In this document: positions 1-49,283 of the stretch, piece by piece
How positions within the stretch are numbered: the first letter of the stretch is position 1
Layout of the letters: every line of letters begins with the position of its first letter
From: Eledone cirrhosa
Lineage: Eukaryota
DNA: 64,000 nt
Direction: 5' to 3'
NCBI GenBank assembly: GCA_964016885.1
Contig: OZ024742.1
Location: forward strand, 35,774,001 to 35,838,000
Made by a program: the position numbers and the translations under genes
Notes under the pieces: generated by a model
What the model was told of the DNA's origin: nothing
The model's input: only the letters and a program-made list of their open reading frames with translations
Database searches by the model: none

Positions 1-2127
1 AAAACCAGTATGACTCTAAAAACCGGTTTGTCTGTGTGTTTACATACAGAATAGCTGGCCACTCACAGTAAAGTGATCAGTGAAAAAAAAAAACTTGGTA
101 CATCTACATATGTATACGTGTGTGTATTCATATACATACTAGTATTTCAGTATACATATATGGATGTACATCTTTGACTTAATTGTTTGAGCGTCAGTCA
201 TACAAAAGTGAGTTACAAACGAAACGAAATTTAATTTCGTTTCGTTATTTGTTTTTATCGTCTCCGTTGAACCGGTACTTACTCACACTCTATGCAAGTT
301 GGTCTGCCCACTACTAATTTTCATAGAAAAAGCATATAGCGATATGTGCTTTTACGATTCTCTAGAGAGGCCGGAAGATAGGTAAATATTGCTGATGAGT
401 TGTAACAACAACGAAACTAGTTCAATATTCCTTGTCTGGCTTTCTGGAGAATAGAGGAAAGGTGTTTCCTCAAAAACCAGTATGACTCTAAAAACCGGTT
501 TGTCTGTGTGTTTACATACAGAATAGCTGGCCACTCACAGTAAAGTGATCAGTGAAAAAAAACTTGGTACATCTACATATGTATACGTGTGTGTATTCAT
601 ATACATACTAGTATTTCAGTATACATATATGGATGTACATCTTTGACTTAATTGTTTGAGCGTCAGTCATACAAAAGTGAGTTACAAACGAAACGAAATT
701 TAATTTCGTTTCGTTATTTGTTTTTATCGTCTCCGTTGAACCGGTACTTACTCACACTCTATGCAAGTTGGTCTGCCCACTACTAATTTTCATAGAAAAA
801 GCATATAGCGATATGTGCTTTTACGATTCTCTAGAGAGGCCGGAAGATAGGTAAATATTGCTGATGAGTTGTAACAACAACGAAACTAGTTCAATATTCC
901 TTGTCTGGCTTTCTGGAGAATAGAGGAAAGGTGTTTCCTCAAAAACCAGTATGACTCTAAAAACCGGTTTGTCTGTGTGTTTACATACAGAATAGCTGGC
1001 CACTCACAGTAAAGTGATCAGTGAAAAAAAACTTGGTACATCTACATATGTATACGTGTGTGTATTCATATACATACTAGTATTTCAGTATACATATATG
1101 GATGTACATCTTTGACTTAATTGTTTGAGCGTCAGTCATACAAAAGTGAGTTACAAACGAAACGAAATTTAATTTCGTTTCGTTATTTGTTTTTATCGTC
1201 TCCGTTGAACCGGTACTTACTCACACTCTATGCAAGTTGGTCTGCCCACTACTAATTTTCATAGAAAAAGCATATAGCGATATGTGCTTTTACGATTCTC
1301 TAGAGAGGCCGGAAGATAGGTAAATATTGCTGATGAGTTGTAACAACAACGAAACTAGTTCAATATTCCTTGTCTGGCTTTCTGGAGAATAGAGGAAAGG
1401 TGTTTCCTCAAAAACCAGTATGACTCTAAAAACCGGTTTGTCTGTGTGTTTACATACAGAATAGCTGGCCACTCACAGTAAAGTGATCAGTGAAAAAAAA
1501 CTTGGTACATCTACATATGTATACGTGTGTGTATTCATATACATACTAGTATTTCAGTATACATATATGGATGTACATCTTTGACTTAATTGTTTGAGCG
1601 TCAGTCATACAAAAGTGAGTTACAAACGAAACGAAATTTAATTTCGTTTCGTTATTTGTTTTTATCGTCTCCGTTGAACCGGTACTTACTCACACTCTAT
1701 GCAAGTTGGTCTGCCCACTACTAATTTTCATAGAAAAAGCATATAGCGATATGTGCTTTTACGATTCTCTAGAGAGGCCGGAAGATAGGTAAATATTGCT
1801 GATGAGTTGTAACAACAACGAAACTAGTTCAATATTCCTTGTCTGGCTTTCTGGAGAATAGAGGAAAGGTGTTTCCTCAAAAACCAGTATGACTCTAAAA
1901 ACCGGTTTGTCTGTGTGTTTACATACAGAATAGCTGGCCACTCACAGTAAAGTGATCAGTGAAAAAAAACTTGGTACATCTACATATGTATACGTGTGTG
2001 TATTCATATACATACTAGTATTTCAGTATACATATATGGATGTACATCTTTGACTTAATTGTTTGAGCGTCAGTCATACAAAAGTGAGTTACAAACGAAA
2101 CGAAATTTAATTTCGTTTCGTTATTTG

Positions 2128-2134
<7 letters not shown>
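1..2134 (+). mobile_element. Tandem array (~4.5 units, 469 bp) of a hammerhead-bearing retrozyme / PLE pLTR-like unit (family A); runs off the window start
   Basis: Near-identical units with period 469; one HHR per unit; ends in (TA)n. Confidence 0.9.
385..429 (+). ncRNA. Type I hammerhead ribozyme, family A (also 854-898, 1323-1367, 1792-1836)
   Basis: AAUAUUG-CUGAUGA-GUUG(UAACAA)CAAC-GAAA-CUAG-UU-CAAUAUU; 7-bp stem I, palindromic stem III. Confidence 0.9.
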
Positions 2135-2637
<503 letters not shown>

Positions 2638-10164: not shown

Positions 10165-10255
10165 CGAAGGAAATGTGGTAAGGAACCAGGTGGACCATAA
10201 CGCACCAAAGTACTCAATACTTGAGGTAGTAGAGTGGGTAATAGGAACCAGTAAG

Positions 10256-10349
10256 ACCCCGACAGCTGAGCTCAAGCCGTTTCGACGGCTAATTCTGGAC
10301 TAAATGAACATTTATCCTGGTATTTAAATAGCCGATCTTCTCAAGGGGT
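10256..10349 (-). ncRNA. Type I hammerhead, U3-A8 core variant (family D)
   Basis: Reverse complement of 12199-12292. Confidence 0.8.
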
Positions 10350-12198
10350 AATTCCATATATGGTCAAAGTGATTGTCAAAAATCAGTAGTAATTCTGTGG
10401 TTGCAAATTAGTAGGGGAGATGGTGGCTAAACCTGCCAGTAGGAGAAAGAGGGGAGGGGGTGGAGTAGACCCAATCAAGCGTTGGTAGTGCCAGCTACAG
10501 CTGGGCATGAGGTCAAAGAAGATACAGGGGAGGGGGAGGGGGAGGAAGTCGGAACGGTAGGTAGAACAATGGGGGGTAAAAATAGGAAAGAAAAAATACT
10601 GAGAGTGAAGAAAAGCAAAAAAGTGTAAAGAAAAAATTAAATTCTACGACCTAGGTGTCAGGCTATTGTTAGGCGAGAATAAAATAAAGAAAGAAAGAAA
10701 GAAGTAAATAAATAAATAAATAAATAAATAAGGAAATAAGTAAAAGAACTAGGTGGGACGAATTAAGCAAGGACCCTTTTAAGAGGTATAAGTACGTAAA
10801 TGATACGGTGACTGGTCAACAAAAGGGGCCAAAATACTAAAGAGACTACCACGAAATAAACAATAAAGGTTTCCATCCCGGGCCAGCAACGACCCAGTGC
10901 AGCAAAGTGAACTTGTACGACATAATAATTCTGAGTCCCGGGAAAAATATATACTAATGCTAACTCTAAAAGATCTAAAACAAGCTACATGAAAGTTCGT
11001 ACGAAATAAAGGTAGAATACGGAGAAATAAGTTCAGAATCCACCCCGCCCAGAAGAAAAGCGAAGCAAGAAATACTGAAACGAAAAAATAAGGCATAAGT
11101 GCCACTAAGAAATAAAGAGGGCACAGAGAATAGTGGGAGCGGTCGGAAAAGGGGGGCAAGTATCCGGGGTCTAAGCCAACTGCTATAAAGGGCGGAGTCC
11201 GCCAAATCTATCAAAGACTAGGGGAGGGGGGAGTGGGGGTACTAAGGCTACATGGGGCCAAAGGGCAGCCTCGGGTGGGCGAGAAAAGACGCCGACAAAG
11301 GAGAAGTACCCCCACTCCCCCCTCCCCTAGTCTTTGATAGATTTGGCGGACTCCGCCCTTTATAGCTGTTGGCTTAGACCCCGGATACTTGCCCCCCTTT
11401 TCCGACCGCTCCCACTATTCTCTGTGCCCTCTTTATTTCTTAGTGGCACTTATGCCTTATTTTTTCGTTTCAGTATTTCTTGCTTCGCTTTTCTTCTGGG
11501 CGGGGTGGATTCTGAACTTATTTCTCCGTATTCTACCTTTATTTCGTACGAACTTTCATGTAGCTTGTTTTAGATCTTTTAGAGTTAGCATTAGTATATA
11601 TTTTTCCCGGGACTCAGAATTATTATGTCGTACAAGTTCACTTTGCTGCACTGGGTCGTTGCTGGCCCGGGATGGAAACCTTTATTGTTTATTTCGTGGT
11701 AGTCTCTTTAGTATTTTGGCCCCTTTTGTTGACCAGTCACCGTATCATTTACGTACTTATACCTCTTAAAAGGGTCCTTGCTTAATTCGTCCCACCTAGT
11801 TCTTTTACTTATTTCCTTATTTATTTATTTATTTATTTATTTACTTCTTTCTTTCTTTCTTTATTTTATTCTCGCCTAACAATAGCCTGACACCTAGGTC
11901 GTAGAATTTAATTTTTTCTTTACACTTTTTTGCTTTTCTTCACTCTCAGTATTTTTTCTTTCCTATTTTTACCCCCCATTGTTCTACCTACCGTTCCGAC
12001 TTCCTCCCCCTCCCCCTCCCCTGTATCTTCTTTGACCTCATGCCCAGCTGTAGCTGGCACTACCAACGCTTGATTGGGTCTACTCCACCCCCTCCCCTCT
12101 TTCTCCTACTGGCAGGTTTAGCCACCATCTCCCCTACTAATTTGCAACCACAGAATTACTACTGATTTTTGACAATCACTTTGACCATATATGGAATT

Positions 12199-12292
12199 AC
12201 CCCTTGAGAAGATCGGCTATTTAAATACCAGGATAAATGTTCATTTAGTCCAGAATTAGCCGTCGAAACGGCTTGAGCTCAGCTGTCGGGGT
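12199..12292 (+). ncRNA. Type I hammerhead, U3-A8 core variant (family D)
   Basis: ACCCC-UUGAGAA-GA(U)CGGCUA...UAGCCGUC-GAAA-CGGCU(UGAGCUC)AGCUG-UC-GGGGU. Confidence 0.82.
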
Positions 12293-12302
12293 CTTACTGG
12301 TT

Positions 12303-12375
<73 letters not shown>

Positions 12376-18541: not shown

Positions 18542-20863
<2,322 letters not shown>

Positions 20864-20908: not shown

Positions 20909-20955
20909 CTGCTATATATATTTCAGTGACAACCATTATTGGCCTCATCAGACAG
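20909..20955 (-). ncRNA. Family C hammerhead with apparent stem II deletion
   Basis: CUGU-CUGAUGA-GGCCAAUAAUGGUUGUCACU-GAAA-UAUAUA-UA-GCAG. Confidence 0.55.
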
Positions 20956-36972: not shown

Positions 36973-39179
<2,207 letters not shown>

Positions 39180-40385: not shown

Positions 40386-42882
40386 TAAGATGTATGGTAG
40401 GTCGTATGTGAATCGCGATGATCACGTCTGACTTACCAAATATGTGACGGTAGCTAGTTAAGCTCTATGCGTATAAGCAGAGCAGAAATATTAGTGAAAA
40501 AGAACAAAGGAACTATTATGACATTATAACAAGTTTATTGCCGACAGCCGTTTCGTCCGACCCCATGGTGGGACTTATCAAGGCATATAACATGTGATTG
40601 CAAGATCATTGTTTACATCAACGTATCACTCAAGGCTAGCAGTTTGAAATTGTGGTATACATCAGCAACTCCGCTTGTGTAGTTGGGGTCTATATTCTAA
40701 GGGGGCTCTTTTATAATAGTTGTCGGGGTCAGAGATTGAAGTTTAAAAATTAGACAATAATATATAATTTACGCATCAACATTAAACCAAAAGACTTGGG
40801 GTCCCGTAGAAGCACCTTAGAAAATCCCTCAATGAGTGCATAAAGCTTACAGGCTCCAATAAACCTACTAGACTAGAAGAAGATTAAGAGGCTAATAAAA
40901 TTAAAAAAATAAAAATAAAAAATAATAAAAAAAAATTTAAAATAAAAAAAAATAAAATAAAAAAAAAAAAATAAATAAAAATATAAAGTTTCCCTAAAAA
41001 ATATATAAAGTTCCTATGAAATTCCTTCTAGAGAAAAAAAAAAAAATTTTCCGAAAGAAAAAAATCTTCCCGAGAAACCTTGGACTTAGAACCGACAGAC
41101 TCGTCTATCGCGAAAGCGTTCAACCCCTGAAACTAAAAGATCGAACGGACCACTTCCGGCAACCACTGGCTATTGGATCCACAGGTACATCTCCCAGAGA
41201 GTCCACGCAGATAATAGTGAATCCCAGGTGATCCATGAACTTTTAAACGAGACCAGCTGCGCCTGGAGCTATGCAGATGACGACATACGCATAATGGATA
41301 TCGTGCCTGGAGCTATGCAGATGACTGCATAAGCAGAATGGATATCGCGCCCACACGGTCACCAGTACTGTTCATCCTGCTGTATGTATGTAGGCATCCG
41401 TGCGCGGGATATCCCTGATTACATTTTCTTGACCATCAATTGTTAATCGATTGTTTGTTATTTAGGCAGGAATATACCATTGTGTCTGTGCTAATCCTAT
41501 GTGTTGCTGTGTGTGTGTAAAGTATCCGAGCGCGGGATATCCCTGAGCTAATTTTGCCTGACCGTTAATAGTGTTCTGATTACTTGTTGATTGGGCAGGA
41601 ATATATATTGTTGTCTTTGTTGATCCTGTATCAATCATTTTGTGATAATTTTGTAATAATTTCGTGATAATTTTGTAATAATTTTGCGATAATTTTATGA
41701 TAATTTGATAATTTTGTAATAATTTTGTGGTAATTTTATGATGATTTGATAATTTTGTAATGATTTTGTGGTAATTTTGTAATAATTTTGTAATAATTTT
41801 TAATCCTGTATCAATAATTTTAGAATAATTTTTTTTGTGATAATACACTGTTAGATCACTGAAGCTACCTTATACCTTCTTAAAAATACATTTTATAATT
41901 ATTGTCATTTTGCTTATGTATTTTCTTATTTACCACTTTCTTTAATCTTGCCCAACTTGATAAACTCCTTGAATTGCTCCCTAATTCAATTACTTAAATT
42001 ACTTAGATTATTGTATCTATTATGCCTAAGTTGTATCTGTTGAAGTAGCCCTTTGAAAATTCCTCGGATATCCCAAATACCGTAATTTTTAATTTTTTAA
42101 TTTTTTAATTTTTAACTTTTAATGTATAGTTTTCCTCAATTCGTTTTTATATATATCCTTAGAGGCTCTCTAAAATGTTAATTCTTCGAAGGGTCTCTCG
42201 GAAGAAGTTCCTATTGGAAATATTAAAGGGGCCTTTTCTGAGAGATTTATAGAAGGCTCTCAGAATTAAACTCTAATTGATTAGTTTCTTTCAACTTAGT
42301 TTTCAATTCAGTTTTCTGAATTTTGTAAACGTGATCTCGGGGGAAGGTTTTTTTTCTTTCGGAAAAACATTTTTTTTTCTCTAGAAGGAATTTCATAGGA
42401 ACTTTATATATTTTTTATTTTTTATTTTTTTATTTTATTTATTTATTTATTTATTTATTTTTTTTTTTTTTATTAGCCTCTTAATCTTCTTCTAGTCTAG
42501 TAGGTTTATTGGAGCCTGTAAGCTTTATGCACTCATTGAGGGATTTTCTAAGGTGCTTCTACGGGACCCCAAGTCTTTTGGTTTAATGTTGATGCGTAAA
42601 TTATATATTATTGTCTAATTTTTAAACTTCAATCCCTGACCCCGACAACTATTATAAAAGAGCCCCCTTAGAATATAGACCCCAACTACACAAGCGGAGT
42701 TGCTGATGTATACCACAATTTCAAACTGCTAGCCTTGAGTGATACGTTGATGTAAACAATGATCTTGCAATCACATGTTATATGCCTTGATAAGTCCCAC
42801 CATGGGGTCGGACGAAACGGCTGTCGGCAATAAACTTGTTATAATGTCATAATAGTTCCTTTGTTCTTTTTCACTAATATTA
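40383..42882. mobile_element. Fold-back PLE-like element (family I): ~550-bp inverted arms around an ~11-bp TAATTTTGT-type minisatellite
   Basis: Arms ~40487-41075 and ~42335-42880; minisatellite 41635-41845; (TA)n flanks. Confidence 0.8.
42783..42829 (+). ncRNA. Type I hammerhead, U3-A8 core variant (family I; also 40539-40585 -)
   Basis: UGCC-UUGAUAA-GUCC(CACCAUGGGGUC)GGAC-GAAA-CGGCUG-UC-GGCA. Confidence 0.85.
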
Positions 42883-45378: not shown

Positions 45379-46430
45379 CTATCCGTTGGGGTATATCGTG
45401 GGGCTGTAATACAGGAAAGTTTTGTGCAATTTATGTTTACAAGCCGAAATTGCCTCGGATTTTTTGTTTAAGATGTGGTCTGTGGTGTACAGTGTTTCCA
45501 GGGCCTCAGCGGCGCAGAGGTCACATGGTCTTTTATTTCCGTAATACGATCTAGCCCTAGCTAGGATCTCCCAGTGTAACTTATATTGGGTGTGGTTGTC
45601 TTTTAGACTCCAGATATAAGCTGAAAGTGACGTCATATTCCTTCTTAGAGGGTAACGAAAAGAATGGGTATGCATGTAAAGACGCTGCTTGAAACTATTG
45701 GCGGTTAACCCTATGTAGGCCCTACGGGACGTGGGTGTTACAACCTTACATTTGTAGACAATGTTACTAGAGAGGCATTTACCGGATAGGGGCAATCAGC
45801 CCGATTCCTGCAATTACAGTTAGTACTAACTACAGGGTTGCACGTGTTCCTACGGCTAGGTAGTTTAGCTAAATTTGAAGCTGTGATGTTATGTGCAAGG
45901 TTAGGAGTCGTAGAGTAAGAAATTTTAATAGTATTTCTATTAAAAATTTTACTATATTTATGTGTAGGGGGGAAATGCTTCGTAATAAGGGAAAGAAAGA
46001 TCTTAGCTAATGGTGTGGCCACCTCCATATTATATGGTGGGTTAAACCAACAAATGCGACGGGATCTATTTCTTCTAGGTCTATTTTCGTACTCTGTATA
46101 AGCTACTATATCGACAAATCCACTTCGAGCAAGAGCTTCATTGTAATAAGTGGAATGGTCGTTGAAAATGCGCTCGTTGGTGGAAAGACGGGAAAGCCTC
46201 AACGAAACGTTTTTTACCAGGTTCTTGGTTATGCTGGCAGGATGGTTGGAATGCTTACTTATGTAATTAAACGTATCATTCGGCTTTCTATACGGGTAAT
46301 ACAACCCATTCAATAAATTGAGGGTAACGTCGAGGTAATTAACGACCGAGAGATTGGCCTCAACCTGTATAGAGAGGTTGAAGCCTTTAAAGAAGGCTGT
46401 GAGTTCTTTTCTGAACCTGTCGCAAGCACG
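45379..46430 (-). pseudogene. PLE RT-thumb plus GIY-YIG endonuclease (Nematis-like by motif), frameshift near 45790
   Basis: NYLDVTL, YRKP, SNHP, WFNPPY, CNCR..CPLSGKC, IVY...YIGLT..FKQR..H, CDLC..E. Confidence 0.88.
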
Positions 46431-46690
46431 AGGTCCGCACTTAGTCATGGTACAAACCACCGCCCGCGTTGGAGAATTCGTCCTTGATAGAGAAAAGAAG
46501 GAAAAGGCCAATAAGATCAGTAACCTCCGCAGAGTCACTGGCGCCCATACTCACGTCGAATGGGGTGCTATTGGATTTTTTAATCCAAATAGAGTCGTCG
46601 AAATTAATCACCGATATATATTTTCCTTATCGAGCCCTCTTTGGATTTTAGTCTTCAATTTTATTATTATTACTATATATTTATATATAT

Positions 46691-48486
46691 ATAAAAACAA
46701 ATAACGAAACGAAATTAAATTTCGTTTCGTTTGTAACTCACTTTTGTATGACTGACGCTTAAACAATTAAGTCAAAAATGTACATCCACATATGTATACT
46801 GAAATACTAGTATGCATATGAATACACATACGTATACATATGTAGATGTACCGAGTTTTTCACTGGTCACTTTACTGTGAGTGTCCAGCTATTCTGTATG
46901 TAAACACACAGACAAACCGGTTTTTAGAGTCATACTGGTTTTTGAGGAAACACCTTTCCTCTATTCACCAGAAAGCCAGACAAGGAATATTGAACTAGTT
47001 TCGATGTTGTTACATCTCATCAGCAATATTTACCTATCTTCCGGCCTCTCTAGAGAGTCGTAAAAGCACATATCGTTATATGCTTTTTCTATGAAAATTA
47101 GTAGTGGGCAGACCAATTTGCATAGAGCGTGAGTACGTACCGGTTCAACCGAGACGATAAAAACAAATAACGAAACGAAATTAAATTTCGTTTCGTTTGT
47201 AACTCACTTTTGTATGACTGACGCTTAAACAATTAAGTCAAAAATGTACATCCACATATGTATACTGAAATACTAGTATGCATATGAATACACATACGTA
47301 TACATATGTAGATGTACCGAGTTTTTCACTGGTCACTTTACTGTGAGTGTCCAGCTATTCTGTATGTAAACACACAGACAAACCGGTTTTTAGAGTCATA
47401 CTGGTTTTTGAGGAAACACCTTTCCTCTATTCACCAGAAAGCCAGACAAGGAATATTGAACTAGTTTCGATGTTGTTACATCTCATCAGCAATATTTACC
47501 TATCTTCCGGCCTCTCTAGAGAATCGTAAAAGCACATATCGTTATATGCTTTTTCTATGAAAATTAGTAGTGGGCAGACCAATTTGCATAGAGCGTGAGT
47601 ACGTACCGGTTCAACGGAGACGATAAAAACAAATAACGAAACGAAATTAAATTTCGTTTCGTTTGTAACTCACTTTTGTATGACTGACGCTTAAACAATT
47701 AAGTCAAAAATGTACATCCACATATGTATACTGAAATACTAGTATGCATATGAATACACATACGTATACATATGTAGATGTACCGAGTTTTTCACTGGTC
47801 ACTTTACTGTGAGTGTCCAGCTATTCTGTATGTAAACACACAGACAAACCGGTTTTTAGAGTCATACTGGTTTTTGAGGAAACACCTTTCCTCTATTCTC
47901 CAGAAAGCCAGACAAGGAATATTGAACTAGTTTCGATGTTGTTACATCTCATCAGCAATATTTACCTATCTTCCGGCCTCTCTAGAGAATCGTAAAAGCA
48001 CATATCGTTATATGCTTTTTCTATGAAAATTAGTAGTGGGCAGACCAATTTGCATAGAGCGTGATTTAATTTCGTTTCGTTATTTGTTTTTATCGTCTCC
48101 GTTGAACCGGTACGTACTCACGCTCTATGCAAATTGGTCTGCCCACTACTAATTTTCATAGAAAAAGCATATAACGATATGTGCTTTTACGATTCTCTAG
48201 AGAGGCCGGAAGATAGGTAAATATTGCTGATGAGATGTAACAACATCGAAACTAGTTCAATATTCCTTGTCTGGCTTTCTGGAGAATAGAGGAAAGGTGT
48301 TTCCTCAAAAACCAGTATGACTCTAAAAACCGGTTTGTCTGTGTGTTTACATACAGAATAGCTGGACACTCACAGTAAAGTGACCAGTGAAAAACTCGGT
48401 ACATCTACATATGTATACGTATGTGTATTCATATGCATACTAGTATTTCAGTATACATATGTGGATGTACATTTTTGACTTAATTG

Positions 48487-48488
<2 letters not shown>
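46691..48488 (-). mobile_element. Family A array, 466-bp subtype: ~3 units (-) plus an inverted partial unit (48064-48488 +)
   Basis: Period 466; HHRs at 46986-47030, 47452-47496, 47918-47962 (-) and 48220-48264 (+); (TA)n flanks. Confidence 0.9.
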
Positions 48489-48545
<57 letters not shown>

Positions 48546-48694
48546 AATAGTAGAAAGGAAAAATATGTTTTCAGTAGAAAACGTTGAAGAGATTTTTTTT
48601 CAGTGAAATATCAAAACATTAATTTATTTACAATACCGGTATTATATGCATTGTCAATTGCGGATACGCAGAATATTAAGTTGCAAATTTGTAC

Positions 48695-49283
48695 AGATAC
48701 CTTCAGATACCCGGACAGACGTTCATCCACAAAACTCGCGAGCCACGTATGGTCCCTCAAGGACTCAAGTATAGGCTACTCCATTCAATGGAAAGCCATC
48801 ACTAAGTCCAAGCCATACGCAAGGGGTAATCCGACGTGTGGCTTATGTATTGACGAACGAATAACTATCCTAAAGAGATTACGCAATAGTGATTGCCTAA
48901 ACACGAGAAGTTAATTTTTCACACGTCACCAAACATCTATTGCATAACTACAAGGCTCCGGACTGATTCTTTGTAATTTTATTTTTAATTTTTTTAATTT
49001 TATTTTCAACCTAAAAACTTTCCGGACTTTCGCAGTTATCTCCCTTACACCTCCCGCACGCAGTCTAGTATTGCCTGTGTGAAATGACCGAGTTTCTGCG
49101 CATGCGCGTTCGTACGGTTGTCCTTCCTGTTCCTATAACCATACACATCCCGAGCTGAAGATCCGCGAAGGTGAAACAATTGTTCTCGGTATGGTGAACT
49201 AACTGTTGTGTAACCACTTCTACCTAACTCGTCCCCTGGACTGAGTGCTCTACCACTACGGATATTACCTTCCAGTGTTCCAC

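What the first reader, a model, noticed from the sequence alone, without database searches (positions are those of the whole stretch)
46691..48488. Compensatory stem II change between the two family A subtypes
Seen: stem II is GUUG/CAAC in the 469-bp array and GAUG/CAUC in the 466-bp array, a U-A to A-U double change, with the rest of the HHR identical. This suggests selection on the ribozyme fold in two subfamilies ~45 kb apart. This array also ends in an inverted partial unit, as PLE insertions do.
Basis: seen in the sequence. Interest (0 to 1): 0.7.

Follow-up and report, generated by a model that had tools for sequence, protein, structure and literature searches.

The report
Base-pair swap in hammerhead retrozyme family
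A 466-base repeat with a hammerhead-ribozyme motif has over 9,000 ribozyme copies in this genome, in two versions that swap one base pair with almost no mismatched copies, likely because only well-folded, predicted self-cutting RNAs get copied onward; it is an ordinary new member of the known animal retrozymes.

Summary
The 466-bp array (46691-48488) and the 469-bp array (1-2134) are young subtypes of one tandem family with a type I hammerhead; stem II pair 2 is A-U in one, U-A in the other. Genome-wide pattern counts give at least 5,102 U-A and 4,013 A-U ribozymes, against 3 U·U and 3 A·A. Rarity alone proves little, since subfamilies descend from few masters. A control is more telling: of 98 nearby linked variant pairs, the four with no intermediate copies are all base-pair partners (4 of 6 partners, 0 of 92 non-partners). 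The catalytic core has no shared change, and a sister family keeps the fold with other stem sequences. Selection on the fold is likely. The swap is probably one historical event, and hairpin-templated mutation is not excluded. The inverted arm is a Penelope-type mark: the arms end at two fixed sites about 70 nt apart, in (TA)n. Verdict: new member of the animal non-LTR retrozymes. Compensatory hammerhead changes in satellites are published, and this scan already described two-armed retrozymes elsewhere in this genome. Cleavage and expression are untested.

The parts
46691..48064 (-). Long arm: about 2.9 tandem units of the 466-nt retrozyme (unit positions 327-466, two full units, 1-302; numbering from the predicted cleavage site). 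Outer 3' end at unit position 302
48064..48488 (+). Inverted short arm, unit positions 273-466 and 1-231, with one whole hammerhead. Outer 3' end at unit position 231
47452..47496 (-). Type I hammerhead: stem I AAUAUUG/CAAUAUU, core CUGAUGA, stem II GAUGU-AACA-ACAUC, GAAA, palindromic stem III ACUAGU, predicted cleavage after GUU (between 47459 and 47458). Same motif with cores at 46999-47023 (-), 47931-47955 (-), 48227-48251 (+)
   Evidence: Rfam Hammerhead_HH9 E=3.6e-8, 36.5 bits, below the gathering score of 52; no hit at gathering threshold
47470..47481 (-). The swapped pair: unit 444 (window 47481) = A and unit 455 (window 47470) = U
46691..46761 (-). About 70-nt 'tail' (unit 232-302) with a 13-bp perfect hairpin; at the end of the long arm only
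48488..48543 (.). (TA)28 target microsatellite at the right end; a shorter TA run flanks the left end (about 46672-46692)
1..2134 (+). 469-bp array of the same family, U-A subtype (variant bases 400/411 and repeats), ending at unit 302 in (TA)n. It continues left of the window and has an inverted arm ending at unit 228
   Evidence: L082
18760..20860 (.). Copies of a sister retrozyme family with the same core and an AANA loop II, but stem II U-AGCU/AGCU-U and stem I CGGUG/CAUCG

Best explanation
This is one insertion of a non-coding, tandem 466-nt repeat family with a type I hammerhead motif (a non-LTR retrozyme), and its A-U/U-A stem II swap likely spread because only RNA units with a paired stem II fold, are predicted to self-cleave, and would be copied into new sites by a Penelope-type enzyme. 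Shown: the motif, the two alleles, their counts, the missing intermediates, the fixed arm ends in (TA)n. Inferred steps: (1) arrays are transcribed as multimers; (2) hammerheads cut them into units, probably as dimers, because stem III is one pair plus a palindromic loop; (3) units, perhaps circular, are reverse-transcribed by a Penelope-like RT/GIY-YIG protein primed from both strands of a cut (TA)n, starting at unit 302 on one side and 228-233 on the other; (4) in one master lineage one base of stem II pair 2 changed, the mismatched form (predicted about 4 kcal/mol weaker) barely amplified, and a second change restored pairing. The direction of the swap is not settled.
For: Counts: U-A at least 5,102 (6,077 minus 961 minus 14); A-U 961 + 3,052; U·U 3 copies at 2 loci and A·A 3 copies. 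In 10 of the 11 odd-allele loci with several hammerheads in the fetched stretch, the odd allele is a single unit among paired neighbours, as post-insertion decay would give. In 79 insertions chosen by their end, not their ribozyme: 41 A-U, 27 U-A, 0 mismatched, 11 without the site. No-intermediate test: 4 of 6 partner pairs against 0 of 92 non-partner pairs. Shared variants keep pairing in 25 of 46 cases, unit-level changes in 78 of 306, Fisher p=2e-4. No shared variant falls in the 16 core positions; other shared hammerhead changes are at loop II, H17 (U/C), a G·U in stem I and the outer stem I pair. On 42 units, 50 cells change on both sides, against 17.3 in shuffles and 1-9 when partners are slid. 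Stem II energy is -2.3/-2.7 paired and +1.6/+2.0 mismatched. The unit folds at z=-10.5, sense -157 against antisense -124 kcal/mol. The sister family (13,609 pattern matches) keeps core and AANA loop with other stems. Ends: in 56 of 80 loci picked by a 302 end the opposite arm ends at 223-234; 5 more have a tiny such arm; 1 has a second 302 end.
Against: No cleavage or RNA data. The swap is probably one event, and cell counts repeat it thousands of times. With its two columns removed, the tree forces at least 2 changes for A-U, because L071 sits among U-A copies. All 9 other sites checked show four gametes with it, so recombination or recurrent change is common. Outside the hammerhead, constraint is modest: 21 of 46 shared variants break a predicted pair (some come from a wrong register in the single-sequence fold), and pairs 33/48 and 311/321 have 4 and 11 A·C intermediates. 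The number of pairs with a double change (7) is not above shuffles (5.0; 66 of 500 reach it). Three transition pairs also lack the G·U intermediates that selection should tolerate, which fits one-step mutation. The partner list was drawn up after seeing the data, and the pairs are not independent. No autonomous partner element was identified.
Confidence: 0.72

Rival explanations
1. Mutational compensation: after one side changed, a hairpin-templated (template-switch) event during DNA replication or reverse transcription fixed the partner, or both changed at once. Missing intermediates then reflect the mutation process, not selection on this pair.
For: Template switching is proposed to fix RNA stems (10.1101/2021.04.15.439925, abstract read). 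Closest copies across the swap differ at almost nothing else (L047 vs L050: the two sites plus one private change). Pairs 36/45, 110/125 and 111/124 lack even G·U intermediates. L042 is a second double change at this pair (G·U in a U-A background).
Against: The stem is only 5 bp. Inverting the segment does not turn U-A into A-U (from the sequence). It does not explain the unchanged core, or the sister family's different stems around the same core and loop. L033 holds two U·U units whose other marker sites match the copies on either side of the swap.
Confidence: 0.18
2. Neutral founder effect: two unrelated changes happened to fall on partner bases in one master copy and hitch-hiked; the hammerhead is inherited but not needed for spread.
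For: Subfamilies descend from few masters, so intermediates are rare anyway; single-base variants at these sites run at about 1 per 1,000 copies. In the anole Penelope-like element, hammerhead mutants did not block insertion in vitro (PMC11167929). Only 1 of 9 Xenopus retrozyme dimers cleaved in vitro (10.64898/2026.07.22.740005).
Against: 0 of 92 non-partner linked pairs lack intermediates. Linked partner pairs exceed chance: 2 observed against 0.19 expected on the conservative fold, permutation p=0.015. No shared core change.
Confidence: 0.07
3. A plain DNA satellite spread by unequal crossing-over, with hairpins that matter only as DNA palindromes.
For: Long tandem arrays exist (over 30 kb at L065-L068).
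Against: At least 1,740 dispersed ends fall at one site next to (TA)n; arms are head-to-head with two fixed 3' ends; the sense strand folds much better than the antisense; Rfam hammerhead match.
Confidence: 0.03

Closest known systems
Metazoan non-LTR retrozymes (Cervera and de la Pena 2020, PMC7229834: passages plus sections 13 and 14 read; Li, Clavereau and Pollet 2026, 10.64898/2026.07.22.740005: parts 1-3 of 5 read)
   Same: Tandem, non-coding, low-GC (36%) units with one type I hammerhead each, thousands of copies, highly self-paired monomer. Stem III is one pair plus a palindromic tetraloop, as described for axolotl HHR_Amex1.
   Different: The unit (466-470 nt) is slightly above the 150-450 bp range in the 2020 paper. 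Here the insertions show Penelope-type tails and inverted arms in (TA)n, which I did not see in the parts read. Expression and cleavage are untested here.
Dolichopoda pDo500 satellite hammerhead (Martinsen et al. 2010, PMC2837043: abstract and passages read)
   Same: About 500-bp tandem repeat with a hammerhead; conserved core; compensatory mutations in stems I and II taken as evidence of constraint.
   Different: There 19 compensatory changes were scattered over 13 of 198 cloned sequences from 12 species. Here one transversion swap divides over 9,000 copies in a single assembly, with whole-genome counts of the intermediates.
Penelope-like element insertions and their hammerheads (PMC3846280, PMC8557442, PMC4209133: passages read; PMC11167929: parts 1-2 of 4 read)
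   Same: [quoted passage not shown]
   Different: No ORF. The tail is about 70 nt, not 30-40. The ribozyme has a G10.1-C11.1 5-bp stem II with an HH9-like stem I, not the long stem II of the minimal PLE type.

Membership tests
Type I hammerhead ribozyme | Core CUGANGA / GAAA / NUH around three stems, ends in stem I | tested here: met
   Rfam HH9 E=3.6e-8 over the full model, below gathering score
Type I hammerhead ribozyme | Stems kept by compensatory change, core conserved | tested here: met
   sister family
Type I hammerhead ribozyme | Loop I-loop II tertiary contact | tested here: inconclusive
   The stem I 'UA' bulge and loop II adenines align with the HH9 consensus; no structural test
Type I hammerhead ribozyme | Self-cleavage at the NUH site | not testable with these tools
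   needs transcription assays
Non-LTR retrozyme | Tandem units of a few hundred bp, one type I hammerhead per unit, many copies | tested here: met
Non-LTR retrozyme | Non-coding, GC under 50%, highly self-paired monomer | tested here: met
   longest ATG frame in a dimer 50 aa, GC 36%; z=-10.5
Non-LTR retrozyme | Target-site duplication longer than 4 bp when present | tested here: inconclusive
   both ends lie in (TA)n, so a duplication cannot be told apart
Non-LTR retrozyme | Expressed as linear and circular monomer RNAs | not testable with these tools
   needs raw RNA reads or blots from this organism
Penelope-mobilised insertion | Inverted 5'-truncated arm, tail at one end only, microsatellite target | tested here: met
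   features as in PMC8557442 and PMC3846280
Penelope-mobilised insertion | An autonomous partner sharing the terminal signals | tested here: inconclusive
   BLAST of the unit against the loci held at that point found only the non-coding sister family; no genome-wide partner search was made
Autonomous Penelope-like element | RT plus GIY-YIG ORF inside the element | tested here: not met

The most novel reading that the evidence does not exclude
The assembly records a ribozyme crossing a fitness valley at single-copy resolution: over 9,000 copies on two paired peaks, six in the valley, and one locus (L033) holding the U·U intermediate at the branch point next to an A-U unit. If L033 is a true relic and single mutants cleave poorly, hammerhead cleavage is required for retrozyme spread in vivo, although it was dispensable for a Penelope-like element in vitro, and such families become a natural dataset for how compensatory transversions fix.
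Probability: 0.25. Interest if true: 0.55.

Novelty: new member of a known kind. Interest (0 to 1): 0.3.

Why it matters
Whether genomic hammerheads in animal retrozymes must cut for the element to spread is open: the anole element inserted without cleavage in vitro, and most Xenopus retrozymes tested did not cleave. This family gives copy-count evidence that the fold is maintained in the lineages that amplify, and offers natural alleles (U-A, A-U, U·U, A·A) for a cheap assay. The kind of element, the compensatory-change argument and the one-sided tail are all published, so the gain is incremental.

Tried and rejected
My first patterns fixed GUU and the AACA loop and missed a large A-U clade with GUC; counts were redone. 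U-A copies with GUC or another loop were not counted, so totals are lower bounds. Direction of the swap: unit-level change per kb is lowest in the two window subtypes (1.65 and 1.87) and higher at both ends of the tree (7.4 and 6.2), and the sister family is too far off to root it (264-267 matches to all clusters). Not settled. Changes were not mapped branch by branch, so the number of origins rests on a label count. L033 as a relic is ambiguous: a reversion followed by local duplication also fits. Sequencing runs: no RNA holder listed. Contigs of three runs labelled as other organisms hold 90-99% alike pieces with U-A (X4, X6) or A-U (X5) in 1-11 records; origin unclear, not used. End count at unit 228-233: 742 forward matches; the reverse count is inflated by overlapping gap matches. 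Flanking ORF pieces gave no useful Pfam or PDB match. A look-up of earlier findings by sequence returned nothing. A-to-I editing as driver: no A>G excess among unit-level changes (47 A>G, 69 T>C), and a hint among insertion-private ones at paired sites (11 against 4). Rows dropped: 13 loci picked for rare stem II alleles were left out; L100 was merged with its duplicate L099; L129 (two insertions mixed) was dropped but kept in 60 and 62. Literature: 'retrozyme'+'cephalopod' listed only PMC8557442; I found no description of this family, but subscription journals are not searched, and I read no supplements (those of the 2026 preprint could list related families).

Full report
Observation. Tandem Repeats Finder gives a 469-bp array at 1-2134 and a 466-bp array at 46691-48064. 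Their units are 96% identical and lie on opposite strands. Each unit has one hammerhead motif: stem I AAUAUUG/CAAUAUU, core CUGAUGA, stem II of 5 bp with loop AACA, GAAA, ACUAGU, and the predicted cut after GUU. Stem II pair 2 is U-A in all 4 motifs of the 469 array within the window and A-U in all 4 of the 466 insertion; the rest of the motif is identical. Rfam finds nothing at gathering threshold in the window, but matches Hammerhead_HH9 over its full length at E=3.6e-8 on a short stretch. The insertion ends in a 425-bp inverted arm.

The family. The genome (G000, 3.0 Gb) has 6,077 matches to a 35-nt pattern with both variant sites open: 961 A-U, 14 other combinations, and so 5,102 U-A. That pattern missed an A-U clade with a GUC site and often an AAUA loop, which adds 3,052. 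With loop and cut site open, U·U occurs 3 times at 2 loci and A·A 3 times. I fetched 126 insertions, 79 of them chosen by their end and not by the ribozyme. They form about seven clusters along a ladder-like tree. The window's two arrays belong to the two youngest clusters by unit-level change. The unit is non-coding, 36% GC, and folds far better than shuffles (z=-10.5) and better on the ribozyme strand.

Is the swap evidence of selection? Rare intermediates are expected from subfamily structure alone. Most mismatched copies are single decayed units inside paired arrays (10 of 11 multi-ribozyme loci). So I ran controls. First, among 98 pairs of shared variants 4-25 nt apart and linked at r of 0.5 or more in 112 insertions, only four have no intermediate copy, and all four are base-pair partners: 36/45, 110/125, 111/124 and 444/455 (4 of 6 partners, 0 of 92 non-partners; partner list made after seeing the data). 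Second, variants shared by at least 3 insertions keep pairing in 25 of 46 cases, unit-level changes in 78 of 306 (p=2e-4). Third, none of 85 shared variable sites lies in the 16 core positions, while loop II position 3 and the cut-site base vary; at the average density about 3 would be expected, so this is modest evidence. Fourth, on 42 aligned units the pair is A-U 22, U-A 20, mismatched 0, and double-changed cells number 50 against 17.3 in shuffles and 1-9 in slid controls, though the number of such pairs (7) is not above shuffles. Fifth, a sister family with 13,609 pattern matches, also present in the window at about 18760-20860, keeps the core, the palindromic stem III and an AANA loop with different stem I and stem II sequences. 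Folding of natural copies predicts a loss of about 4 kcal/mol for either mismatch, and misfolding for U·U (inner stem II pair probability 0.17).

Limits. The swap is probably one event. Copies on either side can be identical elsewhere (L047 vs L050). Without its two columns the tree forces at least two changes because of one copy, L071, and other sites show frequent homoplasy or recombination. Many shared variants outside the ribozyme break predicted pairs. Template switching can repair stems without selection (10.1101/2021.04.15.439925, abstract), and the lack of G·U intermediates at three transition pairs fits that. L033 has two U·U units and one A-U unit on the background found at the branch point. 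It may be a relic, or a reversion followed by local duplication. The direction of the swap is unresolved.

The inverted arm. Numbering from the cut site, insertions end at about 302 or 228-233, joined to (TA)n, rarely to another simple repeat. There are 1,740 exact matches to the 302 junction. Of 80 loci picked by that junction, 56 have an opposite arm ending at 223-234, 5 a tiny arm from that site, 1 a second 302 end (a stretch with two insertions), 3 another end, 13 none seen, and 2 run off the fetched stretch. The window's insertion is a 302/231 pair. An inverted truncated copy, a tail at one end only and microsatellite targets are published marks of Penelope-like elements (PMC8557442, PMC3846280, passages). 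The anole element starts reverse transcription at two internal sites and extends both target strands in vitro (PMC11167929). I infer priming from both strands by a Penelope-type enzyme. I reached this, before seeing that earlier notes of this scan say the same for this and other families. No partner element was identified.

How it most likely works. Arrays are transcribed (inferred); hammerheads cut multimers into units, probably as dimers, since a short palindromic stem III works that way (PMC4209133, passages; PMC7229834); units or circles are copied by a Penelope-type enzyme into (TA)n (ends shown, enzyme inferred). Lineages that amplify keep a paired stem II (shown); the reason is likely loss of cleavage in mismatched forms (predicted, untested). 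Against a strict need for cleavage: hammerhead mutants did not block insertion of the anole element in vitro, and 8 of 9 Xenopus dimers did not cleave.

Comparison and verdict. The element meets the sequence features of metazoan non-LTR retrozymes (PMC7229834, sections 13-14); cleavage and circular RNA are untested. Compensatory changes in stems I and II of a satellite hammerhead were reported for Dolichopoda pDo500 (PMC2837043), and covariation among genomic hammerhead families in PMC4209133. This is a new member of a known kind, with a clean and testable but incremental result. Interest 0.3.

Noticed in passing
window 18760-20860; L033:2712-2776; L036:226-830: Sister retrozyme family (about 477 nt, 13,609 pattern matches) with a U·U pair at the base of stem II, a GUA cut site, an internal (AT)n hairpin and what look like homologous end sites.
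   Followed up: partly
L033 (G000:C1:149585112-149588146): Array with one A-U unit and two U·U units on the background found at the branch point of the swap; it directly abuts a sister-family copy.
   Followed up: partly
L042 (G000:C3:194684409-194687443): G·U at the same pair in a U-A background: a second double change at these two sites, in a single copy.
   Followed up: partly
unit positions 33/48 and 311/321 (A1, A2): The intermediates of these A-U to G-C changes are A·C mismatches, not G·U. From my own knowledge A·C is a favoured ADAR substrate, so editing could supply the second step.
   Followed up: partly
unit positions 50, 206, 311, 321, 400, 407: The same states appear at both distant ends of the family tree, several of them strengthening pairs: parallel change or recombination.
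   Followed up: no
window 45382-46626 (-) and 48588-48911 (+): Broken ORF pieces on both sides of the array that resemble Penelope-type RT and GIY-YIG ends by recalled motifs; Pfam and PDB searches gave no support.
   Followed up: partly
window 10241-12307, 37525-39020, 40487-42881: Three other inverted-pair insertions next to (TA)n in which one arm carries an extension that the other lacks.
   Followed up: no
window 2393-2429 (+) and 20921-20951 (-): Other hammerhead-like motifs with a long stem II and an AT-palindromic stem III; at least five further motif families occur in the fetched loci.
   Followed up: no
L065-L068 (G000:C1:81846872-81880713): A 34-kb A-U array of about 70 units with internal variants repeating at intervals, suggesting later expansion by unequal crossing-over; some units carry stem or loop II changes.
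   Followed up: no
L099 and L100 (G000:C1:55.97-55.99 Mb): Identical insertion layout 17.7 kb apart, probably a segmental duplication or assembly duplicate.
   Followed up: no
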